Shown here in pieces: positions 15,728 through 56,630 of a stretch of DNA of 64,000 bases (its first letter is position 1; every line of letters starts with the position of its first letter). The translations under genes were made by a program, and so were the position numbers. Source of the DNA: Candidatus Aenigmatarchaeota archaeon (GTDB lineage: Archaea > Aenigmatarchaeota > Aenigmatarchaeia > JACPZZ01). Below the pieces are notes generated by a model. The model made no database searches and was not told the DNA's origin. It worked only from the letters and a program-made list of their open reading frames with translations. The stretch lies in assembly GCA_016195275.1 (NCBI GenBank), contig JACPZZ010000017.1, positions 21,581 through 85,580 on the forward strand. The letters run 5' to 3'.

Positions 15728-15748
15728 TTCTTGAATAAGCCTCAGGCG
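15728..15748. repeat. attL: 21-bp direct repeat agcctcaggcgagaattgaac (copy of tRNA-Thr 3' end)
   Basis: Identical 21-mer occurs at 56631-56651, where it forms the T-loop/acceptor 3' end of tRNA-Thr. Confidence 0.75.
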
Positions 15749-15850
15749 AGAATTGAACAATTGTCTACCTTACGTGCGTACTTGCTTGAGCAAGTCGCGT
15801 AGGAGGCGAGGTAGAGTCATCATTCCTATTGGCGCTGTCGGCTCATAAGT

Positions 15851-23286: not shown

Positions 23287-24996
23287 TTACCTGGCTGACA
23301 ACTTCAGCGGCAGGAAACTAACCGCATCACTCTTCACTTCAGTTAAAGTTGCGTCCATTCTATCAGGATAGTGTGAACTCAATTGATCCCTTGCCAATAT
23401 AGGCAGGATTGCTTCCAGCTCAACACTATCTCCATCTATCCAAACCTTAAGCTGGAGAGTTTCTAATAAAAGACGCCTGGCTTCAAAGCTGAATTCCTGC
23501 AATCTCCTTAACACCAGATTACAGAGTGATTTGATGCCTTCTTCGTCTAATTGCCATCGTCGCAGGTTCTTGAGACGTTGTTCAAACACCTCTTTCTCGC
23601 TGAGGAGGCGCTTGCGTTCAATTTCAATACTCGCTTTCTCTCTTTGCAGCAAGTCGTCATCGAATTCTCCAAACGAGTAAAGCCGTATTAGGCGTACCTC
23701 CCTATTGCGAAGCTTGTCAAGCATAGCATCAATTGTCTTGAGATCCTCTTCTGCTGAATCTCCGGACAAAAGGGTCTCCTGCCTTCTTCTTAGCAGCTCA
23801 TAGACAAAATCAGGGTTGGTCATGGCTTCTTCGAGTCGTTCCCAAACCAATCTCTCTAATCTTGCGGCACTATAGGTACGGTTCCTGCACTTTGTAGGGA
23901 AGTCGATGTGTTGTTTGGCTGCACAAGCATAGCTGGGAACCTTCTTCTTCGGCATTCCCCAATATCTTCTACCGCACCATTTACAGTATACGTAGCCGCT
24001 AAACAGGTATTGATGCTTGCTGTTTCTTTTGGCTAGTTCGCTATTCCTCTGAAGCTGCTTCTGGACACTGTTGAACAGTTCTTCAGTGATAATAGCTGGT
24101 GTTGCACCAGGAACTTCGATCCATTCGTCCCGCGGCCTCCAGGCCCTGCTGGTTAGTAGGCGCGAGGGATTTGACTTCAAACGCCTCTTTGGTTCTGCTG
24201 GCGTCATGGTGAATGCGTATGTCTTGCCTGTGTAAGCAGGGTTGGTGAGAACCCTGTGGACTGTGCTCTTTATCCATGTTTCCTTGCCTGAGGGACTTGG
24301 AATCCCAAGATCTCGTAGTCTCCGAACAATAGCGTTGAGAGTCAACCCTTCTTCCACAAGCCAACTGTATATTTTCTTCACGACCTCGGCGTTCTCTGGA
24401 ACGATTGCTCTGATTCCTTCTCCGTCTCCTCTGCCTGGAATATAGCGATACCCATAGGGAGAGGTATGTCCAGCGCTAGGGATTTTACCGCGCAAGGCCC
24501 GCATCTTCTTGCCGCGCGTTGTGCGCTCAAGGATTTTCTCCTTTTCTATCTGGGCAGCGTAGCCAATGACATAACGGATTAGCTGACCTTCAGGGGTATT
24601 ATCCAAAGGCTCAGTCACGAAGATCAACTCAACCTTTCTCTTTTCGCACTCCTCAGCAATGATAGCAATATGTATTGGATTCCTCGCCAGCCTGTCAGTG
24701 GAGTGTACAATGAACGCATCAATCTTCTTCTCCTTAAGAAGAAGGCGCGCGTGCATCAGTAATGGCCTGTCCAGGGTCGCGCCTGAATAATCCTCCTTAA
24801 AGATGAACTCGTCTGGGACCTCGTATCCTTTTGCCTTTGCCAGCGCCAAGCATCGCTCAAGCTGCGTCTCCAGGCTCGTGCCTTCTTCCTTTTGTCTCGT
24901 GGTGCTTACACGAGTGTAAATTGCCGCGGTTTTCATGCGTGCCTCCTTGCCGAAGTTCTCAATGGGTTTACTTCGGCTCTTGTTTTTCCAGATCAC
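23287..24996 (-). CDS. large serine recombinase (resolvase/invertase catalytic domain plus recombinase domain plus zinc ribbon plus coiled coil)
   Basis: 569 aa; N-terminal AAIYTRVSTTRQ catalytic-Ser motif; CKWCGRRY...CAAK zinc ribbon; long C-terminal coiled coil typical of large serine recombinases. Confidence 0.85.
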   Translation of the reverse strand: MIWKNKSRSKPIENFGKEARMKTAAIYTRVSTTRQKEEGTSLETQLERCLALAKAKGYEVPDEFIFKEDYSGATLDRPLLMHARLLLKEKKIDAFIVHSTDRLARNPIHIAIIAEECEKRKVELIFVTEPLDNTPEGQLIRYVIGYAAQIEKEKILERTTRGKKMRALRGKIPSAGHTSPYGYRYIPGRGDGEGIRAIVPENAEVVKKIYSWLVEEGLTLNAIVRRLRDLGIPSPSGKETWIKSTVHRVLTNPAYTGKTYAFTMTPAEPKRRLKSNPSRLLTSRAWRPRDEWIEVPGATPAIITEELFNSVQKQLQRNSELAKRNSKHQYLFSGYVYCKWCGRRYWGMPKKKVPSYACAAKQHIDFPTKCRNRTYSAARLERLVWERLEEAMTNPDFVYELLRRRQETLLSGDSAEEDLKTIDAMLDKLRNREVRLIRLYSFGEFDDDLLQREKASIEIERKRLLSEKEVFEQRLKNLRRWQLDEEGIKSLCNLVLRRLQEFSFEARRLLLETLQLKVWIDGDSVELEAILPILARDQLSSHYPDRMDATLTEVKSDAVSFLPLKLSAR

Positions 24997-25540
24997 TCAA
25001 GAGCAGTCTCGCCAACTTATCCAAAACAGGATCGAGTCCAACAAATGCGCGTGCTTCACCCATGCGCAAAACCTCTTGCGGCTCCGCTACCCTGTCAACA
25101 CTATGCACCGAGTCCGGCTCATCGAGGACCCGTTCATCTTCGCCTGGCTCCTGGAAAAGCGCAGGAAGCTCTCCTTCTTCGCTTTCCGCTCTCCCAACAC
25201 GTCTGGGTCCAGCTTTCTGTTCATTTTCTCTATGGAGGCCCTGGGATAACTGGGCATCCTCGTCTGCTTCACGACTTCCCTCAAGCTTGGGCTTCGGGGT
25301 AGGCTGGGTGGGACAGCCTACGGCATCAGCCCGTTCCTCGTCAATAGGGATAGCAGTATTGCTTTCTCTTTCTACTTCCACTTTCTCAGAGGAACTCTCC
25401 CCGGCTGGCCAGAGGGAAAGTTGCATAGCCCTGATTTGCTTCTTGCCAAGGCGTTGTGCCCGGCTTTCAAGCTGGCCCTCCTCTGTTTTCCCGACTCGCC
25501 GCCGGGTGTCCGTCTTGCGCTCTTTCATTCTCTGTTTCAC
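24968..25540 (-). CDS. hypothetical acidic protein
   Basis: 190-aa Glu/Arg-rich ORF immediately upstream of, and overlapping, the serine recombinase start; low complexity. Confidence 0.35.
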   Translation of the reverse strand: MKQRMKERKTDTRRRVGKTEEGQLESRAQRLGKKQIRAMQLSLWPAGESSSEKVEVERESNTAIPIDEERADAVGCPTQPTPKPKLEGSREADEDAQLSQGLHRENEQKAGPRRVGRAESEEGELPALFQEPGEDERVLDEPDSVHSVDRVAEPQEVLRMGEARAFVGLDPVLDKLARLLLSDLEKQEPK

Positions 25541-25557
25541 GCCGACCTGTTTCTGGT

Positions 25558-26830
25558 TTAGCCCTCATTAAGGCGTTGCCAATTACACTGCGTCACTGAA
25601 ACGAAATAGAACGCAGTCAGGGGTCTTGGGGAAGGCTTGCCTGCGCATAGGGCGATGGATGCCGGACCGGAGCGATTCGCAGAGAAGCGAGGGAAGAAAG
25701 GCATCGCTCGTTTGCGCTCTCCACATCGGACGACACTGTGGCGATGCCCTGACACAAATCGGCGGCGGTCTAAGCCCGACGCCATAAATGAATGTGAGCC
25801 GCATTGCGACCCAGAGTCTTTGTTCCGATCATTAACCATGTCTCTTACATCTTTCCGACCTGTTTCATCCCTGAAACTGATCGCGTAAGGGGATGGGTTC
25901 GGGAAACCGCGAGAGGTTTTCCGATAGGGCTTCCGAGTGAGCGCAAGCGAGCTCGCCGAGCGGAGCGAGGGGAGAAGCCCGTGAGGGTTACGGGAGCGCA
26001 GTCTCCCGATTACAAAATGGGCGGCGTCCGCCCCAATTACGCCACGGTTAGAGGGCAACAGGTGTCCCCACCGTTGCCTCTCTTTCCGATACCAGGCGTC
26101 ATCGATTGAGCCTGCAATCGCTCTGGCGATGTCCAGGCCGAACTTGCTGTCGAACCGGACGACCTGAACCTCGTCGGGTTCGTCCCAGTACAGTCGGAAT
26201 TCCTCCTCTTGGAAATCGACCAGCACTTTGGGAAGTCCTCCCTTCGATTTCGTTTGTCTGCAATTTCACAGACACCACCTCCACACACCTATTCGCGAAT
26301 CCCCGCTTGAAGCTTTCATCAGAAAGATTCAAGAACGGGGATGAGCGGTCACTTGTGGAGGTGGTGTGAAATACAGACTGAAATTGCAAGAGGGGAAGGT
26401 TTGCGAACCTTGCCCGGTCTTCCACGTCCTCGCCCGCTATCCCTTCGCCTTCCGCCCAGAGGATACGATCCGAGTAGCCCGCACCATACGAGGGATACTT
26501 TGGCTCGCGTATCCGGTAGGAGCTTCTCTCACGCCTATACGAGAGCCACAGGTTCTCGATCAGGTGGTAGGCTCTTGGCCGCCACATTCGGTATCCGGTC
26601 ATTCCGTTCGCCCTGCCTTCCTCAGCTCGCGCAGCAGTAGCTTTCCTTTCGGGCTGTCGAACGGCACGAACTCAAGAGGTCTGTCCCAACAGAACTTTCG
26701 GAACGTCCTGAGCCGAAAGTCCACGTTGTACCCATTCCACTTCAGAAACCGCCTCATACGCTCACCCCTGTTTAGGGAGAGGAACGGGGCTTCTTCCCCT
26801 TCCTTCTTTTCTTTTCAATCAACCAGATGC
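25558..26830 (-). other. decayed coding region (broken ORFs, frameshifted fragments)
   Basis: Minus-strand translations give conserved-looking stretches (MRRFLKWNGYNVDFRLRTFRKF...; MWRPRAYHLIENLWLSYRRERSSY...; MLVDFQEEEFRLYWDEPDEVQVVRF...) interrupted by stops or frame changes; also contains a degenerate copy of the island repeat at 25891-25928. Confidence 0.35.
25891..25928 (+). repeat. island repeat element, degenerate copy f
   Basis: gggttcgggaaaccgcgagaggttttccgatagg aligns to the CGGGAAACCG...AGGTTTCCGG core of copy a. Confidence 0.4.
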
Positions 26831-26833
26831 GGG

Positions 26834-27319
26834 TCATGCTTTCACCGCCGCTGCGGATTGCGAAGAAGAGGGCGCATCCTCCTTCTCCGTCTCCACCGTG
26901 CTACAGGTGGATGGCTTGGCATTTACTTTGCCGAGCAGCCACTCGGCGAAGTTGTCAGCCAACTTCTTCACACCGTCCGATGACAGCCCAGTCGGTGCCC
27001 AGCACGTTGCTGCGGCTTTCAAAGCGACTGAGTAGACCATCAAGGTCTCCCGTTCGTAGAGGCCGAAGCCCCTTGGAACGGTGTCCGACAGCTTGGCAGT
27101 CGGGGTCTCCACGACCTCAATCGCCTTAATGTTTCGGAACTTCCCGTTCTCCACATAGGCGATGGCCACCTGCTGTCCTTCTTTCACCGGACACTCTTTC
27201 TCGAAGGCGCTGTAATACTCGCCCCCGACCCTGACGGCGTACCGGTCTGGGTTTCTCCAGACCAACTCCACGCGGCCTGCCGTCAGCCGCATCCCCCTTT
27301 TTTCTTCTTTCCCTGACAT
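26834..27319 (-). CDS. hypothetical protein
   Basis: 161-aa ORF with coding-like composition (MSGKEEKRGMRLTAGRVELVWRNPDRYAVRVGGEYY...). Confidence 0.4.
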   Translation of the reverse strand: MSGKEEKRGMRLTAGRVELVWRNPDRYAVRVGGEYYSAFEKECPVKEGQQVAIAYVENGKFRNIKAIEVVETPTAKLSDTVPRGFGLYERETLMVYSVALKAAATCWAPTGLSSDGVKKLADNFAEWLLGKVNAKPSTCSTVETEKEDAPSSSQSAAAVKA

Positions 27320-27450: not shown

Positions 27451-27521
27451 GGGGCTTATCTCGGTTTAGCCCGCCTGCGCGAGGGAAGGCCGAGCACGGG
27501 AAACCGTAGGTTTCCGGTGCC
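27451..27521 (+). repeat. island repeat element copy a (extended about 70 nt; core 27481-27521)
   Basis: ggggcttatctcggtttagccc...gagggaaggccgagcacgggaaaccgtaggtttccggtgcc; the core is nested in an outer inverted repeat CCTGCGCG...CGCGgagCGCAGG. Confidence 0.6.
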
Positions 27522-27739
27522 TTCGCGCGGAGCGCAGGTTGACCTCTAGCTGACTCTTCATCCCTCTTTCTCCGAATTGAGGAACCTGACAAGGGTGGAC
27601 GGCGCGACTTTTTCCCTGTCCGCTCTCCCAAGCTCACTCCTTACGAGTTCCTCGATCTGCCCGAGATGGGTCTTGCTCTCGCTCAGGACGATCACGCTCG
27701 CGCAGCCCAGGTTTTGGATGTTCCTCTGGTTCTCTCTTG

Positions 27740-29899
27740 TCACAGAAGGCTCACATTGAAGGGTGGCGGCGAGAGGTAGAAATCGAGAAGCGTGCTGAAC
27801 CGCACGTGGCGCAAGTCCTCGCCGCTGAGACGCTTGCTGGCAAGCTCCTTGATGGACTGCAAGTGCTTTTCGCCCTCGGCCAGGACGAACACGACATCGC
27901 AGAACTTCAAGTCAGCCTGGATGTTGCGCAGCTCGTCCTCTGGCCGGGTCGTCTCGGAAATCTCGGTGCCGATCACTTGGTTCTCAATCCGAGCCAGCAC
28001 GTCAACAGCCTTCCCTGTCGTCTGGTCCTCGATAGTGACGTTGGCGTTCGGCAGCGACGCGGTGATGCGTTCCGCGATCTTGTGCTGCCAGAACTGATGG
28101 ATGAAGGAACCGCGGCCTGATGGCCGTTTAGCCTTGCGCTTGTACTGCTCAAGCAGCGCCCATCCCTTGTCTGTGACTTCGATCAGCTTGGTCGGGCTGC
28201 CACGCCTCACCAAACGGACCTGGTACTCTCGGATCAGGCCCAACTTACCCAGCTTGTCGCGCCGGCCATTGCCTGCCCCATGAGAAACACCTAGTCTCGT
28301 GTCTCTATCTGTGGCCGCTTCGAATGGGGTTGCTGCTATGTCTTGAAGATAGTCGAGCAAGGTGGAATCCATCGACCGGTCTACGTATTGGCTCTCCTGT
28401 TCGCCTTTCTCGTCGCGCGCAGGCTCTCCGTTGACCGCAGCATCGCCTTCCTTATGGTGTGCTTCGTTGCGTGCAGCAGGCGTGGTTCCGTTTCGGGCTG
28501 ACGCTGGTGTCCACTTCAAGGCCGCGAGTATGGCTTTCATCATTTCGGCGATCTGCTCCTCTGTGACAGGAATGTTGAAGCTAATTTCCGGCATCCTGAC
28601 CAGGAAAGGCTTCGCGACCTCCGGGTGGCGCATCATCGCAAATCTCATAGGTAGTTCTTGAAACAGCCGCGCCTGCTCCAACGTCAGCGAGTGGTCGCTG
28701 GCGATCCGCTTGATTGACTCCCCATCTGTTGTGCCGTAATACAAATGGGTCGCCGAGTTGCCGCTAATTACCGAAGGAAGGTCCTTCGCCTCCTGGGTCG
28801 TTGTGACAACCCCCAGTTTGCGTTTCCGGCCCGTACGAACCGTGTCAAAAAGCAGCGGCTCCCCAAGGATCGTCTCAGCATGTCCCGCTGATTTCACGAA
28901 GCGATGCCCTTCCTCCAGGAAGAGGACGTTGCGAAGGTCCGCGTCGCCGAGCTTGGCCTTGTAGTCATCGAACGCAGTGAGCAGCTCAATCGGAAAGAAC
29001 ACTCTGGTGTCCGAAGCCATGCCTTGAAGGTTGAACACCCATGAGCGGTGCGCAAGCTCTCCGAACGAAAAACCCTCAAGCGCGTCGTAAGTTCCGGCCA
29101 GGTGAAGCACTAACCCCGTGAAGCGGTTGATAAGTCCTTCGAGATATTGCGCACGTCGCATGTCAACGGCCCGGTTCATCTTCGCCCGGCGACGCACCAG
29201 TTCCTCGTGGAACTCCCTCACTGTGAATACGCCCTGCCGCTGGTACATCTCGAACCCGATCTCAGTCCCCAGGTTGACGCCACCGTCCCCTACCCAGACC
29301 TCCCTGTCGATGTCCCGCATCCGCGCATCCACATCCGCAAACGATTCGCCAGGCAAAGGCTCGAACAGGTTGCGCTTGAACTGGCCCTCTTTGATCGTGC
29401 AGCGCACAATTCGGCCAGGTGGGGCGTAGGCCGGCAGGTCCCAGACCTCGTTCTCCGAGTCAAGGAAAATGAAATGGTCGCCAAGCTGCTCAAGCTGTAG
29501 CGCCAACGACCTATTCGTAACGGACTTCCCAGTGCCGGGCGCACCCACGTTCACAACGTGGCGGTCGAAATGCTCTCGCTTAAGAAAGACCGGAAAGCCA
29601 AGGGACCAGTCCGGGTTGACGACATAGCCGACCAGAATGTCCCCGACCACGGCTTCGGGCGGCGGCACATCAAAGGGATGAGGCGGTCGATCCGAATTAA
29701 ACGGGCGCATCATATTGACCACCTGAATGACTGGTCTCCAGTTGCCCGTTCTGAGCGCAAGGTTGAAGAACGAGAGGACGCGCGGGTCATGGTCCAGGCC
29801 AGCAACGTGGATGAGCTCCATGACTTGCTGCACGTCGTTGTGTTGGGGTGCATGACCGACGCTCCTCAAAGTAGCCATCAGTCGCAACGTCCTTTGCAA
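27740..29899 (-). CDS. FtsK/HerA/TraG-superfamily P-loop ATPase (DUF87-like) with C-terminal wHTH and additional domain
   Basis: 719 aa; Walker A VNVGAPGTGKSV, Walker B-like FIFLDSEN, VVTTTQEAKDL...HLYYGTTD region as in HerA/VirD4-type ATPases; C-terminal LGKLGLIREYQVRLVRRG wHTH-like segment; last gene of a 7-gene operon. Confidence 0.7.
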   Translation of the reverse strand: MQRTLRLMATLRSVGHAPQHNDVQQVMELIHVAGLDHDPRVLSFFNLALRTGNWRPVIQVVNMMRPFNSDRPPHPFDVPPPEAVVGDILVGYVVNPDWSLGFPVFLKREHFDRHVVNVGAPGTGKSVTNRSLALQLEQLGDHFIFLDSENEVWDLPAYAPPGRIVRCTIKEGQFKRNLFEPLPGESFADVDARMRDIDREVWVGDGGVNLGTEIGFEMYQRQGVFTVREFHEELVRRRAKMNRAVDMRRAQYLEGLINRFTGLVLHLAGTYDALEGFSFGELAHRSWVFNLQGMASDTRVFFPIELLTAFDDYKAKLGDADLRNVLFLEEGHRFVKSAGHAETILGEPLLFDTVRTGRKRKLGVVTTTQEAKDLPSVISGNSATHLYYGTTDGESIKRIASDHSLTLEQARLFQELPMRFAMMRHPEVAKPFLVRMPEISFNIPVTEEQIAEMMKAILAALKWTPASARNGTTPAARNEAHHKEGDAAVNGEPARDEKGEQESQYVDRSMDSTLLDYLQDIAATPFEAATDRDTRLGVSHGAGNGRRDKLGKLGLIREYQVRLVRRGSPTKLIEVTDKGWALLEQYKRKAKRPSGRGSFIHQFWQHKIAERITASLPNANVTIEDQTTGKAVDVLARIENQVIGTEISETTRPEDELRNIQADLKFCDVVFVLAEGEKHLQSIKELASKRLSGEDLRHVRFSTLLDFYLSPPPFNVSLL

Positions 29900-30255
29900 T
29901 TCCAGCCCGCGTTAAGGAACCCCGGGTGCCCGCATTCAGCGCAGACCGGGCGATGGCACTTCCCGCATTCCTTGCTGGTCGCGCAATCTCCGCACATGAC
30001 ATGCAGGCACCTGTAGCAGGCGCACGTCGCGATCTCGGGAGATCGAAAGACCTTTTGGCACCCTTTGCAAAGCCCGGCGCGTATGGTTGTGGTGAAGCCG
30101 TTCTTCGCTGTGGGAGCCTCGACCTCGAAGACTCGCTGGCCCAATTTCACGTGGTCGAGCAGGATCCAGGCCGAATTGCCACCAGCAGACTGCGGGTCTG
30201 CTGGAAAGTTGGGCCGCATCCCCGTACCCCCCTGGCCGGACTCAGTAGCACTCAT
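29878..30255 (-). CDS. Cys-rich small protein, paralog 1 (6 CxxC pairs)
   Basis: 125 aa; N-terminal VKLGQRVFEVEAPTAKNGFTTTIRAGLCKGC then CxxC repeats; paralogous to the next gene (VKVGQKVFEVEEPSARNGFTRTIKAGICKGC); overlaps the ATPase start. Confidence 0.55.
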   Translation of the reverse strand: MSATESGQGGTGMRPNFPADPQSAGGNSAWILLDHVKLGQRVFEVEAPTAKNGFTTTIRAGLCKGCQKVFRSPEIATCACYRCLHVMCGDCATSKECGKCHRPVCAECGHPGFLNAGWNCKGRCD

Positions 30256-30607
30256 TGCAGTGCCACTCCTCTGTCAGGCCATCTTCACCACCACAATCCG
30301 GGCACACCGGCCGTCGGCATATCGCGCATCTCTTCTGCTCTTTGCACTCCGAACACATCACATAATGGCAGCGGCAGCATGAAGTCCTGGCCGCGTTCGC
30401 GGACTGGAAGATGTCTTCGCAGCCCTTGCAAATCCCGGCCTTGATAGTCCTCGTGAAGCCGTTCCTGGCAGAAGGCTCCTCGACCTCGAAGACCTTCTGA
30501 CCGACCTTCACGTAGTCCATCGTGAGGTAGACTGTGTTGTCTGCCACGTTGGGACTGACCATGCCTGGTTGCCCGGACCCAGTGCCCATCCTCGTGTCGA
30601 GTTCCAT
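30242..30607 (-). CDS. Cys-rich small protein, paralog 2
   Basis: 121 aa; same two-domain layout as paralog 1; 14-nt overlap with paralog 1. Confidence 0.55.
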   Translation of the reverse strand: MELDTRMGTGSGQPGMVSPNVADNTVYLTMDYVKVGQKVFEVEEPSARNGFTRTIKAGICKGCEDIFQSANAARTSCCRCHYVMCSECKEQKRCAICRRPVCPDCGGEDGLTEEWHCNECY

Positions 30608-31017
30608 GCTGAACCTCCTATCTGGCTCTTACCTTGGCAAATTGGGCAAACTGCTGACCCTCCGCTCATTTGGGCGCAGCGTGAGCAGGCCTGGCGGCCG
30701 CACACGCATCTGAAACGGGGTGCGCAGTACGTGCAGAGAATGAAGCCGTCGAACATGCACATCGACCCGGCTTCAGCCTCGGACTTTATGAGATCGCCCG
30801 TCCCGGCGCACGTCGCCACCTGAATCTGGGTCTCGTTGATGAGCACTCCGTCTTCGCGGAGGTCAACGACCTGCACCTCCGCGTACGGTGATCTGCCGAT
30901 ACCTGCCGGCCCAATCGGCACCATTCGTCGCACAGTTACGGTTCGCACTGGCTGTGTCACTTCGCTAGGTCTTCCGAAACTCACCCCTGGCACGTTGTTG
31001 GGGTTTGGCGTTACCAT
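30508..31017 (-). CDS. Cys-rich small protein, paralog 3 (divergent)
   Basis: 169 aa; preceded by AGGAGGTG RBS; central Cys cluster CTYCAPRFRCVCGRQACSRCAQ...CPICQG. Confidence 0.5.
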   Translation of the reverse strand: MVTPNPNNVPGVSFGRPSEVTQPVRTVTVRRMVPIGPAGIGRSPYAEVQVVDLREDGVLINETQIQVATCAGTGDLIKSEAEAGSMCMFDGFILCTYCAPRFRCVCGRQACSRCAQMSGGSAVCPICQGKSQIGGSAWNSTRGWALGPGNQAWSVPTWQTTQSTSRWTT

Positions 31018-31027
31018 CGTTCACCTC

Positions 31028-31354
31028 CTAGTAATGGTCCATCTCAGGTGTTCGGCCCGGATTCAACAATCGCTGCATCGAGACGTGGTCAGGCACGAAC
31101 TCTGGGATGCTGCTAGTCAATCGCGGCGACTGAAGCACTGGCGAAAGCGGCGGACGCCTGGTGGGTGACACGCGCCGATTCAGCATACCTTCGAGCGAGT
31201 TCCTATAAAGCGCCCTCGCTTCAAAATCTCGGTTCGGATAGACCCTGTTCCTGTTCGGCCTGTTGGCGTACGAGACCTTATGAGCTTGTCTCGCCTTAGC
31301 TGCCTTCGCTCTCTGCTTCTTGTAGACCCACCACGGGACTTTTCGGTTGGACAT
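31028..31354 (-). CDS. basic low-complexity protein
   Basis: 108 aa, Lys/Arg/Pro-rich; AGGAGGTGAAGG 8 nt upstream of the ATG. Confidence 0.45.
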   Translation of the reverse strand: MSNRKVPWWVYKKQRAKAAKARQAHKVSYANRPNRNRVYPNRDFEARALYRNSLEGMLNRRVSPTRRPPLSPVLQSPRLTSSIPEFVPDHVSMQRLLNPGRTPEMDHY

Positions 31355-31364
31355 CCTTCACCTC

Positions 31365-31598
31365 CTAGAATCCGTCGCATGACTTGTATCCGGACCTGAC
31401 GCAGAACACGCACGCCCTAGCCTTGACCATCTGCTCGCCGCAGCCAGGACAAGCCTCGCCATCGCCAGACGCAACGCCGACATCTACACGAGGTCCGCCA
31501 CCATCGCCACCCTCGGTAGGGAGACGAACGTTGCTGTTGCGGATGCCAATACTGGAAATCCTCGTCCCTTCCTTTTGAGCCTCCATAGGCGTCTCCAA
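31365..31598 (-). CDS. small zinc-ribbon protein
   Basis: 77 aa; CPGCGEQ...CVFC ribbon; same strand and spacing as the operon. Confidence 0.4.
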   Translation of the reverse strand: METPMEAQKEGTRISSIGIRNSNVRLPTEGGDGGGPRVDVGVASGDGEACPGCGEQMVKARACVFCVRSGYKSCDGF

Positions 31599-31608
31599 TC
31601 CGAACCGT

Positions 31609-31980
31609 TCAGAAAGGCGGTCTTATTAATCGATGCCATCGCCGTCTCCCCTTGCGCGCTGGGCCCATCAGGTTTGTCGTACGGCCCGCTAGCTCCTTGT
31701 TTCTCCACAGCAGAATCAGGGCAATCCCGTACAAAGGTGTCATAACGCCGAGCGTCGCGCTCCCGGCAATGAAGAGAGCAGTGGCCGACCTGTCACCCGC
31801 GGCGTCCAATATTGCGGTCGCGAGAAAAAGACAGAGCGGCACACAAAACGCGCAAAACCCAAGACCCCATATCCGCCAGCTTCTTCTCAGGGCTGGCAGA
31901 CCAATAGGCAGCAGGCTCATCAGCGCAAACGGAATCGCCGTGAGCGTTACAGCGTTATTGCCTATACAATCCTGTGCCAT
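31609..31980 (-). CDS. small membrane protein (3-4 TM)
   Basis: 123 aa, hydrophobic segments LTAIPFALMSLLPIGL, LGFCAFCVPLCLFLATAIL, GVMTPLYGIALILL. Confidence 0.45.
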   Translation of the reverse strand: MAQDCIGNNAVTLTAIPFALMSLLPIGLPALRRSWRIWGLGFCAFCVPLCLFLATAILDAAGDRSATALFIAGSATLGVMTPLYGIALILLWRNKELAGRTTNLMGPARKGRRRWHRLIRPPF

Positions 31981-32206
31981 TCCGCTCTCTTACCGGCTGC
32001 GGTTGTTCCACGCCTAGTCTTCTCAGATACACGCGCCCGATAACCTGGTCCTCTGGCGAAAGTCCCTCTGGCAGGCCGTGGTCTGTCACGTACGCACTCC
32101 ACTTCGAGAACTCGCGCGGTCGAGTCGTCTTGAAGTCGTCGAACTCCCACTCCGCCGCAGTCTCCAGAAGCCATCTTTTTACGAAGTTCACAACCCATCG
32201 CCGCAT
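31955..32206 (-). CDS. hypothetical protein, first gene of the operon
   Basis: 83-aa ORF overlapping the next gene by 26 nt. Confidence 0.35.
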   Translation of the reverse strand: MRRWVVNFVKRWLLETAAEWEFDDFKTTRPREFSKWSAYVTDHGLPEGLSPEDQVIGRVYLRRLGVEQPQPVRERNGTGLYRQ

Positions 32207-32408: not shown

Positions 32409-35400
32409 ATGGCAAGCCAAGGTCGTCCTCACACCAGAGCTCCGTGGAAAGACAAGATCCTGATTTGGCAGGAATACTATAGGAACCGAGTCATTAAACG
32501 AGTGGCTGAGGACCTCAGCTTCCAAAAGGCGGATGGCGAATGGTATGGCTATAGCGAGGACACCGTAGCAAGAATAATCAAGGAGTTGGACTACATCTCC
32601 GAAGAAGATGCGGCGAGTCTGTCATCAGAGATTCAAGAACTCAGACGTAGCCGTACACAGGCACCAAACCAACAGGCGTCGCCACAACAAATCGGTCAAC
32701 AATCAGACTACAAAGTTGATTTGCAAGCACTCCGGCAGTCTTGTTCGGATGGGCTCAGGGCTCACCTTGATCGGCATTCGGTAGAGTTTAATAGCAAAAG
32801 CTACGTACCACGCGCCGCCATTGAAGGGGAATTCCGCGAGTTCTTAGATTCGACAAAGCTTTGTTTTCCCATCATTGGCGAAGCAGGCATGGGCAAGACA
32901 ACTTTGCTTTGCCATTTAGCAGACGAGTACTCGCATAGAACCGAACAGCACCCAGACCATTTAGTTTGGGTGTTGTCCGCGAGACCGCTGGCCAATATTC
33001 GCGATCACCCGTTGCGTACGGCGGTAGGCGAGGAAGCGACGGACGTGGGAGCTGCGATCAAGAGCCACCTCTCACGGCACCTCAGCATGGTCGATGTCAC
33101 TAAGAGATCAGAGGTTGACTTCACGGAGGTCGTGGAAGCTCTCTATCGTGAGTTAAGAGACACCGGCGACAAGAAGTTCATCGTGTTAATCGACGCGCTG
33201 AACGAACACCCCCAGGCTGACAAGCTAATTGCATCGCTGGACTCAGCGGTGGCAAGCCTCGCGGACCTCTCCGATGAACTCGATGGCCTCTCAAGGCGCT
33301 TCAAGATCTGTGTGACGTGCCGACCATATTCGTGGCACCGGGCTATCAGCGAAGAACTCCATAGCAGGATCAGGTATTCCCATTATCATGCCCTGCAAGA
33401 GCAGAACTTATTGCCCCAAGTGACTCTTGGAGAATACTCAGAGCAGGAGCTTCAAACGATTTACGAAGGGACAAAGGTTATCACAGACGATGGGAGACGA
33501 TCGGAGTTGCGCCCGGAGTTCACAGCCTTGAAAAGGGACGCCCCCAAGTGGATCAATCGACTATCCGACCCCTACCTGTTCGCCTGCGCGATAGAGGTGG
33601 CAAGGAAGAATGACGGTTATATCCCTCTAGGCTTAACCAAGGCTCAAATGCTGAGAGCCTATATCGACCGGCTGACCAACAATGACAAAGTAGCGCAGAG
33701 ACTCCTCGCGGAAATAACAGAGCGCATGCGGGTGACCATGAGTCCCCAACTGACTCGGCGCGAATTGGAGAGTTGCGCGCAAAGGCTCACCTTGGACCTC
33801 GATGCTCCTGACTCCCCCTATAACCGTCTGATAGATGCAGGAATTCTCCAAGAGTTGAACGATGCGACGAACGACCCGACCCAACTAGCGGTGGGTATCC
33901 GCAACGACCGCATCCTGGAGTACCTCTTGTATGAGCGTCTCAAGCTGCTTCAGCAAGATGTTACGCACATCCGCGATACGCTGATACAAGCGGAATTGTA
34001 CCCTCAGTTGTGGGCTGCCTTGCATACCCTATTCGTTGAAGACTGGGATCAAGCCACCGTTAGTCAACTGGCCGCCATCCGCAACGAGGACCAAACGGCC
34101 CCCGTCGTTGTTCGGGCCTTTATTCCAGGCGTATGTCGCGAAGTGTACAAAGACCGGCCGAAGGAGGTGAATGACCTCGTCCAGACTCTCTTGAAGTCGA
34201 GCGACAATGTGGCATTGATGATGGCAGTGGCGGTTGCCTATACTGTCAAGGACACGGACGGTCTGCTTCAAGCGTTGCAAAACAAGAGCTTAGTTGCACA
34301 GAGACTGGCCATCCAATACTCGTATCTTTTTTGGCGGGCTCACCGTAAGAATGGCTACGCCCTGTTAAACAGATTAAGTGACCGAATATCCGTGGCACCT
34401 GATAGGAAAACAATCCAAGCGTTCGTTGACCTTAGCGTGGCGATCGGAACCAAGCATTTTCGACAACCAGAAATCCGAGAGGAAATTATTGCACTGGCAC
34501 AACGCACGGCTCACGGGTTGATGCACCCCGATCTGAGGAAATCCGGGTTGAATCCCGCCCAGAGGATGAAGAGGCGAGCCGCTAGCTTAATCCTTCGAGC
34601 ATCAACGTCGTTTGCCGGTGGTCCTCTCGTCAATGCAGCGGCTGTTTACTTGGAGAAAACGCTCCGTGTCGCCGAGGACAACAACACCATAGGTAACTAT
34701 TCGGACGTAGCCGCCTTCTTCAAACACGTGCCGCCCCGCGATAGACACCCATATAAAGTGCTGTTGAATTTTTGGGGGCCAGAAGAAGCCAATCTCGTTA
34801 AATTGCGAAACATCATTTGTGATTTGGCGCACAGGCAAGATGGTGTGTTCTACTCCCTCGCAGCCGGGGCTTTGGTCATCCAAGCCTACTATCGACCCGA
34901 AGCTGCACTCAAGATGTTCAATGAGGTTTACGATAGTGCCGAGCAGAATGCGCTTCAAAAACGGCTGGTGCTACGGGCGTCCGATGTCTTGTCTCCACTG
35001 GCCAGCGGAAAGCATCTGAACTCCCAACTCCGGTCCCACAGCGACCTAGTCCGGAGGTTCATCGATGAAACAGCAGGCCGGTGCACCGTGGCAGGCCACA
35101 ATCGGACCATGTGCGGAGTACCGCTTTATCACACTTCGTTAGTAGAAGTTTCTTCACGCGGTAGCTTGACTATCCTGCCCGACGCTATTACTAAAGCTCT
35201 GGTACGGAATGACCCCGAGCTGCTCGTGTCATTAGCTGAAGTTATTAACCAAATGGTCTGGTATATTGAGCCAGAACGCGTCCTCTCACTCAGGGAGTCA
35301 CTGCTTTGGCTACTCGCTTACGGGGACAATCCCCAAGGGAACGTGTACCAAGCTGCGCTGCGCACCGTTGCCACCTTAGCTCTGATATATCCGGATGCAG

Positions 35401-35675
35401 GTGAAGACGTCATTGCAGCAATCGCCAACAAAGAGGAACGGCAACGAGTCAGGAGCGGACTCAAACGCATTGCGGCGGACGAATTGGTCACCCCCGTGAG
35501 CGTTTACTTGGGCGGGATGCACGATGCGGGCATATATACGCTGCTTTCGTCTGACGGTGACGCAGTACGACGATTAGTCGTCGAGATATTGAACGCCGGA
35601 TTGAACGAGAAAACCGTACATGGTCTCATGCGGCTAGTTGCGCGTAGGAGCCTTAAACTATTGCAAGCTACGTAG
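32409..35675 (+). CDS. NACHT-like STAND NTPase with long C-terminal HEAT/ARM-like helical repeat region
   Basis: 1088 aa; about 150-aa N-terminal region, Walker A CFPIIGEAGMGKTTLLCHL, Walker B FIVLIDALNE; more than 600 aa of helical repeats. Confidence 0.75.
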   Translation: MASQGRPHTRAPWKDKILIWQEYYRNRVIKRVAEDLSFQKADGEWYGYSEDTVARIIKELDYISEEDAASLSSEIQELRRSRTQAPNQQASPQQIGQQSDYKVDLQALRQSCSDGLRAHLDRHSVEFNSKSYVPRAAIEGEFREFLDSTKLCFPIIGEAGMGKTTLLCHLADEYSHRTEQHPDHLVWVLSARPLANIRDHPLRTAVGEEATDVGAAIKSHLSRHLSMVDVTKRSEVDFTEVVEALYRELRDTGDKKFIVLIDALNEHPQADKLIASLDSAVASLADLSDELDGLSRRFKICVTCRPYSWHRAISEELHSRIRYSHYHALQEQNLLPQVTLGEYSEQELQTIYEGTKVITDDGRRSELRPEFTALKRDAPKWINRLSDPYLFACAIEVARKNDGYIPLGLTKAQMLRAYIDRLTNNDKVAQRLLAEITERMRVTMSPQLTRRELESCAQRLTLDLDAPDSPYNRLIDAGILQELNDATNDPTQLAVGIRNDRILEYLLYERLKLLQQDVTHIRDTLIQAELYPQLWAALHTLFVEDWDQATVSQLAAIRNEDQTAPVVVRAFIPGVCREVYKDRPKEVNDLVQTLLKSSDNVALMMAVAVAYTVKDTDGLLQALQNKSLVAQRLAIQYSYLFWRAHRKNGYALLNRLSDRISVAPDRKTIQAFVDLSVAIGTKHFRQPEIREEIIALAQRTAHGLMHPDLRKSGLNPAQRMKRRAASLILRASTSFAGGPLVNAAAVYLEKTLRVAEDNNTIGNYSDVAAFFKHVPPRDRHPYKVLLNFWGPEEANLVKLRNIICDLAHRQDGVFYSLAAGALVIQAYYRPEAALKMFNEVYDSAEQNALQKRLVLRASDVLSPLASGKHLNSQLRSHSDLVRRFIDETAGRCTVAGHNRTMCGVPLYHTSLVEVSSRGSLTILPDAITKALVRNDPELLVSLAEVINQMVWYIEPERVLSLRESLLWLLAYGDNPQGNVYQAALRTVATLALIYPDAGEDVIAAIANKEERQRVRSGLKRIAADELVTPVSVYLGGMHDAGIYTLLSSDGDAVRRLVVEILNAGLNEKTVHGLMRLVARRSLKLLQAT

Positions 35676-36340: not shown

Positions 36341-36577
36341 CTAACATCGGCCTGAACAATTCTCAGAAGTGTGCACCCTGGCCCGGCCACAACACACAAA
36401 CTGCAAAATGCCGCAGTGCTCAACGAGCGTTGCGTTGTGTGCGGAGCTGAACACCAATCGCAGGCCCGCCGTCTCCTTGCAGAAACCGCACATCGGATGA
36501 CCGTCCTGAGTCCACTTGCACCTCGGCAGGACCTGGACCATCGCCTGCCCGTTGATTGTGACAACGCCGTCTCTCAT
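36341..36577 (-). CDS. small Cys-containing protein (cassette copy 1, gene B)
   Basis: About 78 aa from MRDGVVTINGQAMVQVLPRCKWTQDGHPMCGFC...; conserved in copy 2 with conservative substitutions; start overlaps the stop of gene A (ATGA). Confidence 0.45.
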   Translation of the reverse strand: MRDGVVTINGQAMVQVLPRCKWTQDGHPMCGFCKETAGLRLVFSSAHNATLVEHCGILQFVCCGRARVHTSENCSGRC

Positions 36578-37112: not shown

Positions 37113-37183
37113 CGCGGGTTATCTGGATTGAGCACTACACTGGAGGGAAAGCCGAGCACGGAAAACCGAAGGTTGTCGGTGCC
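37113..37183 (+). repeat. island repeat element copy b (core 37142-37183)
   Basis: gcgggttatctggattgagcac...ggagggaaagccgagcacggaaaaccgaaggttgtcggtgcc. Confidence 0.6.
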
Positions 37184-56582: not shown

Positions 56583-56630
56583 GCAATTACATGGGTCAGT
56601 CTGCTAATAAAAGATATACACTTGTTCAAA

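What the first reader, a model, noticed from the sequence alone, without database searches (positions are those of the whole stretch)
27740..32206. A seven-gene same-strand operon couples a FtsK/HerA/TraG-like ATPase (with wHTH tail) to three paralogous multi-CxxC proteins plus small basic, membrane and Zn-ribbon proteins
Genes are tightly packed or overlapping from 32206 down to 27740. Several have canonical AGGAGGTG ribosome-binding sites. The three Cys-rich proteins are 125, 121 and 169 aa. They share an N-terminal about 35-aa beta-type module (VK(L/V)GQ(R/K)VFEVE.P.A.NGFT.TI.AG.CKGC) followed by 5-6 CxxC pairs, likely three zinc ribbons. The terminal 719-aa ATPase has a HerA/VirD4-type P-loop core and a C-terminal winged-helix plus an unassigned about 150-aa domain. 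HerA/FtsK ATPases partnered with small nucleic-acid-binding proteins recur in conjugation and in several recently described defence systems. This exact architecture is not one I recognise, so it is a candidate novel module, either DNA-translocation/transfer or defence.
Basis: partly seen in the sequence, partly recalled or inferred. Interest (0 to 1): 0.7.

Follow-up and report, generated by a model that had tools for sequence, protein, structure and literature searches.

The report
HerA motor-nuclease module of integrative elements
The gene block is real and conserved: a DNA-pumping HerA-type ATPase, fused to a DNA-binding and a nuclease-like domain, sits with cysteine-rich zinc-binding partner proteins beside the integrase of small mobile elements, and neither family is annotated, so its job (DNA transfer, replication or defence) is still open.

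Summary
Eight co-oriented, tightly packed minus-strand ORFs (32206 to 27740) encode an 83-aa protein, a 3-TM protein, a Zn-ribbon, a basic protein, three Cys-rich paralogs and a 712/719-aa ATPase. The array continues on the same strand to a large serine recombinase (23287-24996).

It lies inside a 40.9-kb island with perfect 22-nt att repeats at a tRNA in a DPANN (Aenigmarchaeota) genome.

The ATPase belongs to the HerA clade: the family profile hits HerA 4D2I at E 5e-32, well ahead of VirB4 and FtsK.

An exhaustive search finds about 2,100 relatives, none annotated. In 10 of 11 independent loci a homologous Cys-rich protein lies upstream; four of these carry a C-terminal TM anchor. In all nine loci with enough downstream sequence, an integrase follows on the same strand, and four of these abut a tRNA or tmRNA gene, mostly in bacteria. 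Only the Cys-rich/ATPase pair is universal.

No VirB/Tra, capsid or known defence system matches. Best reading (about 0.4): the DNA-handling core of an undescribed family of integrative elements, a membrane-tethered, site-directed dsDNA motor-nuclease. Rivals are a replicative helicase and a defence cargo. I rate it a new variant of a known kind.

The parts
31955..32206 (-). 83-aa first gene of the array, function unknown
   Evidence: ORF. Homolog at the same position in L001/L004 (35% identity, E 6e-11). No family hit.
31609..31980 (-). 123-aa small membrane protein with 3 predicted TM segments
   Evidence: Hydropathy scan. Positional homolog of 104 aa with 3 TM in L004. Analogous 1-3-TM proteins lie upstream of the Cys-rich gene in L008, L009, L012 and L013.
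31365..31598 (-). 77-aa Zn-ribbon protein (CPGC...CVFC)
   Evidence: Homologs in L004, L007 and L002 (E 1e-8). Weak match to the C-terminal Zn-ribbon of B12-dependent ribonucleotide reductase.
31028..31354 (-). 108-aa very basic protein (pI 11.4) with no Cys, preceded by AGGAGGTG
   Evidence: Weak homolog in L004 (E 1.5e-4). Positional basic analogs in L002 (144 aa, pI 11.8) and L014 (127 aa, basic by its sequence).
30508..31017 (-). Cys1: 169-aa Cys-rich Zn-binding protein (10 Cys) with a C-terminal W-rich tail
   Evidence: Orthologs P0004-P0010. Its last 100 nt overlap the start of the next gene in another frame.
30242..30607 (-). Cys2a: 121-aa Cys-rich paralog (13 Cys, 6 CxxC)
   Evidence: RBS AGGAGGTT lies inside the Cys1 ORF.
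29878..30255 (-). Cys2b: 125-aa Cys-rich paralog (13 Cys, 5 CxxC), a tandem duplicate of Cys2a
27740..29878 (-). 712-aa ATPase (719 aa from the TTG at 29899): N-terminal helical region, HerA-type P-loop core, disordered linker, wHTH, PD-(D/E)xK-like domain
28559..29647 (-). HerA/DUF87-type ATPase core (about residues 78-440 of the 712-aa form). Walker A GAPGTGKS starts at residue 112; Walker B is FLEEGH with E323; R351 and Q362 are conserved
   Evidence: Family profile versus PDB: HerA 4D2I at E 5.3e-32 over profile positions 71-422. 30 of 46 relatives match Pfam DUF87. Invariant residues.
28139..28372 (-). Winged helix-turn-helix (about residues 503-580)
   Evidence: AF2 pLDDT 82-89. Foldseek finds MarR-type wHTH structures. 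Sequence profile hits LrpA at E 9.5e-4 and MarR at 4e-3.
27755..28117 (-). Restriction-endonuclease-like (PD-(D/E)xK-like) domain (about residues 588-708) with invariant E617, D626, E639 and near-invariant K623, N652, D656
   Evidence: AF2 gives an alpha-beta-beta-beta-alpha-beta topology at pLDDT 72-90. Foldseek top hits are EcoT38I, BstEII and the Can2 nuclease domain (E about 1e-2). Invariant columns in 46 and 21 sequences. No Pfam family.
27558..27743 (-). 61-aa ORF, a relic copy of the ATPase C-terminal end
   Evidence: 23/53 identical to ATPase residues 651-703, E 2e-6.
26834..27319 (-). 161-aa conserved downstream gene, function unknown
   Evidence: 64% identity in L004 and 40% in L007. 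No PDB or Pfam match.
26259..26388 (.). 130-nt near-perfect hairpin in the non-coding gap, a candidate cis-acting site
   Evidence: Nested perfect inverted repeats. Folding z-score -7.1. The same arms occur in L004 at the equivalent place.
24968..26226 (-). Two ORFs (222 aa and 190 aa) between the hairpin and the recombinase, conserved in L004
23287..24996 (-). Large serine recombinase, the integrase of the sub-element
   Evidence: Pfam Resolvase 4.7e-31, Recombinase 5.4e-24, Zn_ribbon_recom 2e-9. Same position in L004, L007, L009, L011, L012 and L014.

Best explanation
The block is the DNA-handling core of a previously undescribed family of small (about 10-16 kb) integrative elements. These elements insert next to tRNA or tmRNA genes using a serine or tyrosine recombinase.

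The large protein is a HerA-type, presumably hexameric, dsDNA-translocating ATPase. It carries its own DNA-recognition module (a winged helix) and its own cutting module (a PD-(D/E)xK-like domain with an invariant E-D-E triad).

The Cys-rich proteins are Zn-binding adaptors. In many relatives they are tail-anchored in the membrane. Here they are soluble, duplicated, and accompanied by a separate 3-TM protein.

Proposed mechanism:
1. After excision, the motor is loaded on the element's DNA through the wHTH.
2. The nuclease domain nicks or cuts.
3. The HerA ring pumps the DNA at the membrane, held there by the Cys-rich/TM partners.

The result would be export to a neighbouring cell or into a vesicle or particle. 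Functionally this is a one-motor system in the manner of Streptomyces TraB, built on a different branch of the FtsK-HerA superfamily.

Shown here: homology, domain architecture, invariant residues, gene linkage, and the mobile-element context. Inferred: oligomeric state, nuclease activity, membrane tethering, the direction and purpose of pumping, and any interaction between the Cys-rich proteins and the ATPase.
For: ATPase clade:
- A 46-sequence family profile hits HerA 4D2I at E 5.3e-32 across the whole core.
- Weaker hits are VirB4 at 2.6e-13, a DNA translocase coupling protein (6O1W) at 3.7e-10, and FtsK at 2.8e-8.
- 30 of 46 relatives match Pfam DUF87.

C-terminal half:
- AF2 models it confidently as a wHTH plus an alpha-beta-beta-beta-alpha-beta domain.
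- It matches MarR-type wHTH structures and the restriction enzymes EcoT38I and BstEII and the Can2 nuclease domain.
- E617, D626 and E639 are invariant in 46 sequences and in 21 sequences that include stand-alone copies.

Linkage:
- In 11 independent loci, only the ATPase (11/11) and the Cys-rich family (10/11) are shared.
- The Cys-rich alignment keeps seven Cys columns invariant (an eighth at 90% or more) over 19 sequences.

Membrane link:
- The Cys-rich protein has a C-terminal TM segment in L008, L010, L012 and L014.
- Small 1-3-TM proteins are encoded just upstream in the window, L004, L008, L009, L012 and L013.

Mobile-element backbone:
- An integrase follows on the same strand after 0-5 small genes in all nine loci that have enough downstream sequence.
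- A tmRNA or tRNA gene lies at the integrase end in L007, L012, L013 and L014.
- Defence-like cargo occupies a different, variable slot upstream: NACHT here, a VWA/PP2C/kinase triad in L010, a caspase in L012, HEAT in L007.

Fusions that point to mobile-element DNA transactions:
- The wHTH-nuclease module is also fused to a T4SS coupling-protein-like ATPase (P0107: TraG-D_C, T4SS-DNA_transf) and to tandem HerA/TrwB-like ATPases (P0103).
- The ATPase is fused to an excisionase-type HTH_17 in P0022.

No capsid, portal, terminase, relaxase or VirB gene was found among the 20 larger island ORFs scanned.
Against: - No experiment exists, and no member of the family has been characterised.
- The window's own ATPase is below Pfam thresholds for every family.
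- The TraB analogy is functional only. FtsK_SpoIIIE matches are weak (4 of 46 relatives), the ATPase has no N-terminal TM segment, and TraB has no nuclease domain.
- No clustered 8-mer repeats (clt-like sites or iterons) were found in the element or in five relatives.
- One relative fuses the same ATPase to a Prim-Pol domain (P0024), which points to replication rather than export.
- HerA paired with a PD-(D/E)xK nuclease is also the logic of known defence systems. The best PADLOC hit is a defence-operon ATPase, mad8, at E 3.4e-9.
- The loci were found through the ATPase or the Cys-rich protein, so 'always beside the integrase' could also describe a cargo hotspot.
- In the window, L004, L002, L007 and L009 the Cys-rich proteins have no TM segment. 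In L002 and L007 no neighbouring TM protein was found beside the block.
Confidence: 0.4

Rival explanations
1. Replication protein. The HerA-type ATPase is the element's initiator-helicase. The wHTH binds the origin, the nuclease domain nicks it, and the ring unwinds DNA after excision. This is analogous to the primase-helicase with a C-terminal winged-helix origin-binding domain of satellite phage P4, or to rep-xis-int operons of actinomycete integrative elements (both from my own knowledge).
For: - P0024 fuses a Pfam Prim-Pol domain (E 7.6e-11) to the same ATPase and C-terminal module. It sits as HTH_3 - PrimPol-ATPase - 62 aa - serine recombinase in L011.
- The order ATPase - small genes (an HTH_17 excisionase-like gene in L013) - integrase mimics rep-xis-int.
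- No other recognisable replication gene was found in the sub-element or in relatives.
- A conserved 130-nt hairpin lies 1.4 kb downstream and could be an origin.
- In the other half of the island, the position next to the tyrosine integrase is taken by an Orc1/Cdc6 initiator that, like this ATPase, is a P-loop ATPase. Its C-terminal winged helix was not detected here (one search shows only lid domains); that Orc1/Cdc6 proteins end in one is from my own knowledge.
Against: - To my knowledge HerA-clade ATPases are dsDNA translocases and are not known as replicative helicases.
- The Prim-Pol fusion is a single case.
- The TM-anchored Cys-rich partner and the small membrane proteins have no obvious role in replication.
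- No iteron-like repeats were found.
- The same C-terminal module is also fused to a T4SS coupling-protein-like ATPase.
Confidence: 0.25
2. Defence cargo. The Cys-rich protein and the HerA-nuclease form a compact anti-phage or anti-plasmid system carried in an integrase-proximal hotspot of unrelated mobile elements. The HerA ring would assemble and activate the fused nuclease on invading DNA, as in the DUF4297-HerA and Sir2-HerA systems.
For: - The profile hits HerA proteins of defence complexes strongly: 8YHO (DUF87 protein) at 1e-31, 8J4U at 1.4e-23, plus 8XAU, 9C1M, the DptH ATPase 7ES4 and TdpA 8WET.
- PADLOC mad8 matches at E 3.4e-9, and HerA models match weakly.
- Only the two genes are universal, while the rest of each element differs.
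- Defence genes are nearby: NACHT/Avs2-like at 32409-35675, and a STAND-TPR protein at 18851-22057.
- Integrase-adjacent hotspots are known in phage satellites (my own knowledge).
Against: - No PADLOC model covers the Cys-rich protein or the full ATPase architecture.
- In close relatives the pair is embedded between conserved backbone genes on both sides, while the clearly variable slot lies elsewhere.
- Fusions to Prim-Pol, to a T4SS coupling-protein-like ATPase and to excisionase-type HTH_17 are typical of mobile-element housekeeping, not defence.
- The pair is always co-oriented with the integrase.
Confidence: 0.2
3. Provirus morphogenesis module. The ATPase is a terminase-like packaging enzyme that combines recognition, cutting and pumping in one chain. 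The basic protein condenses DNA. The Cys-rich and TM proteins are virion or assembly-site components of a small membrane-containing virus.
For: - PHROG 2666, annotated 'terminase large subunit', is matched by 41 of 46 relatives, with a best E of 1.5e-16.
- The FtsK-HerA superfamily supplies packaging ATPases of membrane-containing viruses; STIV B204 is hit at 3e-5.
- There are many small ORFan genes, a very basic protein and membrane proteins.
- HerA-like helicases in archaeal 'dark matter' islands were proposed to be viral pumps or helicases (PMC4158269).
Against: - No capsid, portal or other virion hallmark was detected.
- No relative was found in 50,697 phage genomes or in IMG/VR.
- The ATPase groups with HerA proper, not with the short A32/B204-type packaging ATPases.
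Confidence: 0.1

Closest known systems
HerA (archaeal HerA-NurA end-resection helicase; Pfam DUF87/HerA_C; PDB 4D2I)
   Same: The P-loop core is homologous. The family profile aligns over the whole ATPase domain at E 5.3e-32, with the Walker A, Walker B and conserved Arg/Gln positions.
   Different: - No NurA partner is present.
- The N-terminal region is helical rather than a recognisable HAS barrel; this part of the model is poor.
- It carries a C-terminal wHTH plus a PD-(D/E)xK-like domain.
- It is encoded on mobile elements next to an integrase, with a Cys-rich partner.
Bacterial HerA-effector defence systems (DUF4297-HerA, Sir2-HerA; PDB 8YHO, 8J4U, 8XAU and others)
   Same: A HerA-type ATPase is combined with a nuclease of the restriction-endonuclease fold; that DUF4297 has this fold is from my own knowledge. 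Profile hits are strong.
   Different: - The nuclease here is fused in cis behind a wHTH.
- The partner gene is a Cys-rich Zn protein, not Sir2 or DUF4297.
- No PADLOC model fits.
- The context and domain fusions point to mobile-element functions.
TraB of Streptomyces conjugative plasmids and actinomycete integrative and conjugative elements (my own knowledge)
   Same: Both are a single FtsK-HerA-superfamily motor with a C-terminal winged helix, on small integrative elements that lack a type IV secretion system and a relaxase. Small membrane proteins are encoded alongside in both cases.
   Different: - It belongs to a different clade: HerA, not FtsK/SpoIIIE.
- It has no N-terminal TM segment.
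- It has an extra nuclease-like domain.
- No clt-like repeat cluster was found.
- The hosts are not mycelial actinomycetes.
arCOG00280 'HerA-like helicase' of archaeal dark-matter islands (Makarova et al. 2014, PMC4158269)
   Same: Both are HerA-like ATPases enriched in integrated elements together with integrases. [quoted passage not shown]
   Different: Membership in that arCOG was not tested here. The passages I read from the paper do not mention the wHTH-nuclease tail or a Cys-rich partner. Most relatives found here are bacterial.
Type IV coupling proteins and VirB4 (TrwB, TraG, VirD4, VirB4)
   Same: They belong to the same superfamily. The wHTH-nuclease module is fused to a TraG-D_C/T4SS-DNA_transf protein in P0107.
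   Different: - The window ATPase matches VirB4 models only far below their cut-offs (NF045975: 22.9 bits against a cut-off of 590).
- No other T4SS gene is nearby.
FYVE / cross-brace zinc fingers
   Different: The scores are below significance. The N-terminal three-stranded sheet and the third Zn site have no counterpart in FYVE domains. It is effectively a fold without a solved relative.

Membership tests
HerA / DUF87 ATPases (FtsK-HerA superfamily) | Sequence-profile membership of the P-loop core | tested here: met
   The family profile hits HerA 4D2I at E 5.3e-32 over the whole core. 30 of 46 relatives match DUF87 and 19 of 46 match HerA_C. The window protein alone is sub-threshold (AAA_10 at 22.9 bits against 27.5).
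HerA / DUF87 ATPases (FtsK-HerA superfamily) | Walker A, Walker B and conserved Arg | tested here: met
   GAPGTGKS starts at residue 112. E323 lies in FLEEGH. R351 is conserved in at least 90% of 46 sequences.
HerA / DUF87 ATPases (FtsK-HerA superfamily) | N-terminal HAS barrel and hexameric ring | tested here: inconclusive
   The AF2 model of residues 63-505 has pLDDT below 50 because the alignment had only 3 sequences. Oligomeric state cannot be tested with these tools.
HerA-NurA end-resection pair | Adjacent NurA nuclease gene | tested here: not met
   None of the operon ORFs or the two flanking genes scanned matches NurA in Pfam or NCBIfam.
Type IV secretion / conjugation operon (VirB/Tra) | VirB4, a coupling protein and a relaxase nearby | tested here: not met
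   The NCBIfam VirB4 model scores 22.9 bits against a cut-off of 590. No Tra, VirB or relaxase family appears among 30 scanned ORFs of the island. Small ORFs were not all scanned.
TraB-type (FtsK/SpoIIIE) conjugative translocase | FtsK_SpoIIIE domain, N-terminal TM segments, clt repeats | tested here: not met
   FtsK_SpoIIIE matches in only 4 of 46 relatives, weakly. No TM segment in the ATPase. No 8-mer repeat clusters. A C-terminal wHTH is present.
Known defence systems (PADLOC v2: Sir2-HerA, DUF4297-HerA, MADS, Avs) | All component genes matched by the system's models | tested here: not met
   Only the ATPase core matches mad8 (E 3.4e-9) and HerA models (1.9e-4 and weaker). The Cys-rich and small proteins match nothing. 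No MADS partner genes are present.
PD-(D/E)xK nuclease superfamily (C-terminal domain) | alpha-beta-beta-beta-alpha-beta core with conserved acidic residues on strands 2 and 3 | tested here: met
   Topology in the AF2 model at pLDDT 72-90. Foldseek hits to EcoT38I, BstEII and Can2. E617, D626 and E639 are invariant. Caveats: the Foldseek E-values are only about 1e-2, the canonical Lys after the third acidic residue is absent, and no Pfam PDDEXK model matches.
PD-(D/E)xK nuclease superfamily (C-terminal domain) | Nuclease activity | not testable with these tools
   This needs biochemistry.
Phage terminase / A32-type packaging ATPase | Adjacent capsid and portal genes; short A32-like ATPase | tested here: not met
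   PHROG 2666 matches, but no capsid or portal family is present. There is no match in phage genomes. STIV B204 is only at 3e-5, against HerA at 5e-32.
Integrative mobile element | Integrase plus att repeats at a tRNA/tmRNA gene | tested here: met
   - Perfect 22-nt direct repeats at 15737-15758 and 56629-56650; the second covers the tRNA 3' end.
- Tyrosine integrase at 55383-56582.
- Serine recombinase at 23287-24996.
- In four relatives (L007, L012, L013, L014) a tmRNA or tRNA gene lies at the integrase end.
- The ends of the serine-recombinase sub-element itself were not found.

The most novel reading that the evidence does not exclude
The Cys-rich/HerA-wHTH-nuclease pair is a self-sufficient, single-motor DNA export (conjugation-like or particle-loading) machine, evolved independently of both type IV secretion and FtsK-type TraB. 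It would be used by a large, unrecognised family of tRNA/tmRNA-integrating elements that circulates in bacteria and has entered a DPANN archaeon. That would make it a mobile-element lineage spanning both prokaryotic domains, with a new route of horizontal transfer suited to cells living in tight physical contact.
Probability: 0.25. Interest if true: 0.85.

Novelty: new variant of a known kind. Interest (0 to 1): 0.6.

Why it matters
**Unexplained mobility.** Small integrative islands without recognisable transfer, replication or packaging genes are very common, and how they move is largely unknown. Here one large multidomain enzyme combines a motor, a DNA reader and a cutter. Together with one Zn-binding partner, it is the only conserved equipment besides the integrase across elements in bacteria and in a DPANN archaeon.

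**If it is a transfer or packaging engine.** It would define a new minimal mechanism of horizontal gene transfer, and a marker gene for finding such elements (about 2,100 homologs are already detectable).

**If it is a replicase.** It would be the first HerA-clade replicative helicase.

**If it is a defence system.** It would be a new fused HerA-nuclease immune module.

**Practical value.** In every case the family is uncurated, and the C-terminal wHTH-nuclease module and the Cys-rich fold have no Pfam or PDB counterpart. Annotating them would improve mobile-element detection in metagenomes.

Tried and rejected
- **Known-family annotation of the eight operon proteins and neighbours.** I scanned Pfam, PADLOC, PHROGs and NCBIfam. 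Only sub-threshold P-loop hits came back for the ATPase, and nothing for the small proteins.
- **Word-indexed homolog search.** The ATPase alone, and then a 3-sequence profile, found only three proteins. Only the exhaustive HMMER search revealed the family.
- **PDB sequence search with the 3-sequence profile.** Nothing found. The 46-sequence profile was needed.
- **AF2 of the full ATPase with 3 sequences.** The core was unusable (pLDDT below 50) and only the C-terminal half was informative.
- **tblastn against reference collections.** The window ATPase has no match in INPHARED phages or PLSDB plasmids. P0014 gives only generic DUF87 hits that cover no more than 54% of the query.
- **Pattern scans of public collections.** GTDB representative genomes and IMG/VR gave no relatives; these scans have low sensitivity. 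Wider alignments were rejected as too divergent.
- **PDB profile searches** for the conserved 161-aa and 114-aa backbone proteins found nothing.
- **Iteron or clt-like repeat search.** No clusters of exact 8-mers.
- **Sigma-70 promoter and terminator scan.** Not above shuffled controls, and of doubtful relevance in an archaeon.
- **Rfam.** Only the two tRNAs and a spurious miRNA hit on the hairpin.
- **Rejected readings.** A VirB/Tra operon has no components present. HerA-NurA has no NurA. MADS is matched only at the ATPase core.
- **Literature.** My searches found no description of this architecture.

Full report
**What is there**

Between 32206 and 27740 the minus strand carries eight consecutive ORFs:
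- an 83-aa protein
- a 123-aa protein with three predicted TM segments
- a 77-aa Zn-ribbon
- a 108-aa protein of pI 11.4
- three Cys-rich proteins of 169, 121 and 125 aa
- a 719-aa ATPase, which is 712 aa from the ATG at 29878 (the NCBI model)

The genes are separated by 10 nt or overlap. The ATPase ATG overlaps the preceding stop codon. AGGAGGTG or AGGAGGTT precedes three of the genes.

The same-strand array does not stop at 27740. It runs on through:
- a 61-aa relic ORF
- a 161-aa gene
- a non-coding gap holding a 130-nt hairpin
- two more ORFs
- a large serine recombinase at 23287-24996

**Where it sits**

The ATPase is identical to a protein of a Candidatus Aenigmarchaeota MAG. The flanks are archaeal: a replication factor C small subunit, and an intron-containing tRNA.

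G+C rises from about 0.45 to 0.52-0.59 between roughly 16 and 56 kb. A perfect 22-nt direct repeat at 15737-15758 and 56629-56650 brackets that stretch, and the second copy is the 3' end of the tRNA.

The 40.9-kb island also holds:
- a tyrosine integrase beside the tRNA
- two Orc1/Cdc6 genes
- a DNA methylase
- a PNP_UDP-family phosphorylase
- a DDE transposase
- two STAND NTPases

One of the STAND genes is the NACHT gene 32409-35675, which diverges from the operon. None of the 20 larger island ORFs scanned matched a capsid, portal, terminase, relaxase or VirB family.

**Conservation**

Three close relatives of the ATPase (57-71% identity) lie on metagenome contigs in the same gene order.
- L001/L004 show 83 aa, TM, Zn-ribbon, basic, Cys1, one Cys2, ATPase, the 161-aa homolog, two ORFs, and the serine recombinase. 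L007 keeps most of this order.
- L002/L003 lack the first two genes.

The 121- and 125-aa genes are therefore a local tandem duplication.

Genes beyond the NACHT gene are also shared with L004 and L007: 35724-36083, 36574-37083 and 38854-39198. The NACHT position itself holds a 459-aa membrane protein in L004 and a HEAT protein in L007. The operon therefore belongs to the backbone of a serine-recombinase element, and the NACHT gene sits in a variable cargo slot.

**The ATPase**

Alone, it scores below every Pfam threshold and matches nothing in the PDB.

An exhaustive HMMER search finds 2,125 proteins at E <= 1e-3 and 111 at E <= 1e-30. Many are 650-730 aa long and aligned end to end. Their own hits to HerA families are significant, and in several cases above Pfam's cut-offs:
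- 30 of 46 match DUF87 and 19 of 46 match HerA_C at E <= 1e-3.

A 46-sequence profile places the core in the HerA clade:

| PDB hit | E-value |
|---|---|
| HerA 4D2I (profile positions 71-422) | 5.3e-32 |
| HerA proteins of defence complexes | 1e-31 to 4e-15 |
| VirB4 | 2.6e-13 |
| DptH | 3.3e-12 |
| a coupling protein | 3.7e-10 |
| FtsK | 2.8e-8 |
| STIV B204 | 3e-5 |

In the 46-sequence alignment the Walker A residues are invariant, and the Walker B glutamate, an arginine and a glutamine are at least 90% conserved.

The C-terminal 200 residues are modelled confidently (pLDDT 72-90) as a winged helix followed by an alpha-beta-beta-beta-alpha-beta domain.
- Foldseek returns MarR-type winged helices and the restriction enzymes EcoT38I and BstEII and the Can2 nuclease domain.
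- The wHTH is confirmed by sequence, with LrpA at E 9.5e-4.
- E617, D626 and E639 (712-aa numbering) are invariant, both in full-length proteins and in stand-alone copies of the domain.
- No Pfam family covers it.

**The Cys-rich proteins**

The two subfamilies are homologous: hhalign gives probability 98.1% and E 8.9e-14. A 19-sequence alignment across all loci keeps seven Cys columns invariant and an eighth at 90% or more.

**Wider context**

I fetched the neighbourhoods of seven more distant ATPase relatives.

Six of them have a homologous Cys-rich gene 0-5 genes upstream.
- In L008, L010, L012 and L014 it ends in a TM segment.
- In the window, L004, L008, L009, L012 and L013 a small 1-3-TM protein is encoded just upstream.

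An integrase (serine or tyrosine type) follows on the same strand after 0-5 small genes in all nine loci with enough sequence. In L007 and L014 it abuts the tmRNA gene next to smpB, and in L012 and L013 it abuts a tRNA gene. Those hosts are bacterial, and one relative is from a Chloroflexota MAG.

All-against-all BLASTP shows that only the ATPase (11/11) and the Cys-rich family (10/11) are universal.

The exception is L011, where the ATPase is fused to a Prim-Pol domain. Other fusions are:
- the wHTH-nuclease module on a TraG-D_C/T4SS-DNA_transf protein
- the module on tandem HerA/TrwB-like ATPases
- the ATPase with an excisionase-type HTH_17

**Interpretation**

Shown:
- a HerA-clade motor with its own DNA-binding domain and a nuclease-like domain
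- obligate linkage to a Zn-binding partner that is often membrane-anchored
- residence in the integrase-proximal backbone of small tRNA/tmRNA-integrating elements
- defence-like cargo placed elsewhere in the element

Inferred: the motor loads on element DNA through the wHTH, cuts it, and pumps it at the membrane, for export to another cell or into a particle. That would be a functional analog of TraB built on the HerA branch. I put this at about 0.4.

Rivals:
- **Replicative initiator-helicase, 0.25.** Supported by the Prim-Pol fusion, the rep-xis-int-like order and the nearby conserved hairpin.
- **Two-gene defence cargo, 0.2.** Supported by the HerA-plus-nuclease logic, the PADLOC mad8 hit and the fact that only the pair is universal. 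The sampling here was conditioned on the ATPase or the Cys-rich protein, so integrase adjacency cannot exclude a hotspot.
- **Provirus packaging module, 0.1.** Supported by PHROG 2666 'terminase large subunit' matched by 41 of 46 relatives. No capsid gene was found, and there is no relative in phage or IMG/VR collections.

**Comparison with the known**

The core is a member of the HerA/DUF87 family at profile level. The system is none of the following:
- HerA-NurA, because there is no NurA
- a VirB/Tra operon, because no components are present (NCBIfam VirB4 scores 22.9 bits against a cut-off of 590)
- a TraB/FtsK translocase
- any PADLOC system

HerA-like helicases are known to be enriched with integrases in archaeal dark-matter islands, with the function left open (PMC4158269). 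My literature searches found no description of the HerA-wHTH-nuclease architecture or of its Cys-rich partner.

I therefore rate it a new variant of a known kind, with moderate to high interest (0.6). The module is real, widespread, uncurated and mechanistically suggestive, but its function is unresolved.

Noticed in passing
window 15737-15758 and 56629-56650 (island 15737-56650): A perfect 22-nt direct repeat brackets a 40.9-kb high-GC island. The right copy is the 3' end of an intron-containing tRNA (56630-56732, minus strand), and a tyrosine integrase lies beside it (55383-56582). This is a classic integrated element in a DPANN archaeal genome, carrying two Orc1/Cdc6 genes.
   Followed up: partly
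window 27558-27743 (-): The 61-aa ORF just after the ATPase stop codon is a 43%-identical copy of the ATPase's last ~55 residues (E 2e-6). It looks like the leftover 3' end of a different ATPase allele, which suggests a past replacement of the gene by recombination.
   Followed up: partly
window 26259-26388; L004 13788-13879: A 130-nt near-perfect hairpin (folding z-score -7.1) lies in the non-coding gap between the 161-aa and 222-aa genes. The same arms (CACCACCTCCACA / TGTGGAGGTGGTG, containing GGAGGTG and its complement) occur at the equivalent place in L004. It could be an origin, a transfer or packaging site, or an RNA regulator.
   Followed up: partly
window 27480-27520, 37142-37182, 46259-46281, 52898-52920: A roughly 45-nt motif (GAGGGAARGCCGAGCAC..GGAAACCGWAGGTT..CGGTGCC, with an internal hairpin) recurs in four places in the island: one between genes, the others at gene boundaries or over a doubtful 53-aa ORF (46217-46378). 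Two copies share about 85 nt. It is absent from all fetched loci. It may be a regulator site or a miniature mobile repeat.
   Followed up: partly
window 30508-30607; also L004 10426-10540, L002 2988-3102, L007 10423-10519: The C-terminal W-rich tail of Cys1 and the N-terminus of Cys2 are encoded by the same 97-115 nt in two reading frames. Both frames are conserved in four loci, and the Cys2 ribosome-binding site lies inside the Cys1 ORF. L009 lacks the overlap.
   Followed up: partly
window 32409-35675 (+): A 1088-aa NACHT-type STAND NTPase (weak Avs2 match) diverges from the operon. The same position holds unrelated genes in L004 and L007, so it is a cargo slot. L010 carries a VWA/PP2C/Ser-Thr-kinase triad, and L012 a caspase plus a ThiF-like gene, upstream of the conserved block.
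   Followed up: partly
window 36479-36778 and 50822-51121: A 300-nt direct repeat (84% identity) reflects paralogous 169-aa and 163-aa genes, and homologs of these genes are backbone genes in L004 and L007. The island may therefore contain two related elements, one with the serine recombinase and one with the tyrosine integrase.
   Followed up: no
L007 16096-16445; L014 14122-14482; L012 14315-14407; L013 14353-14429: Relatives of the element sit at tmRNA (next to smpB) or tRNA genes in bacterial contigs, while the window copy is in an archaeon. The element family appears to span both domains. The ends of the serine-recombinase sub-element in the window were not found.
   Followed up: partly
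L007 10804-12910 and 14557-15823: In L007 the ATPase is split into 402-aa and 296-aa ORFs and the serine recombinase is fragmented. This copy is probably decaying.
   Followed up: no
window 15879-15953 (+): A weak tRNA-Gly (Rfam 35.6 bits) lies just inside the left att repeat of the island. It is followed by a histidine-kinase-like ATPase gene (17336-18178) and a 1068-aa STAND-TPR-BTAD protein (18851-22057).
   Followed up: no
L008, L012, L013 (upstream of the Cys-rich gene): ThiF/E1-like genes recur a few genes upstream of the Cys-rich/ATPase pair in three distant loci. No counterpart was recognised in the window.
   Followed up: no
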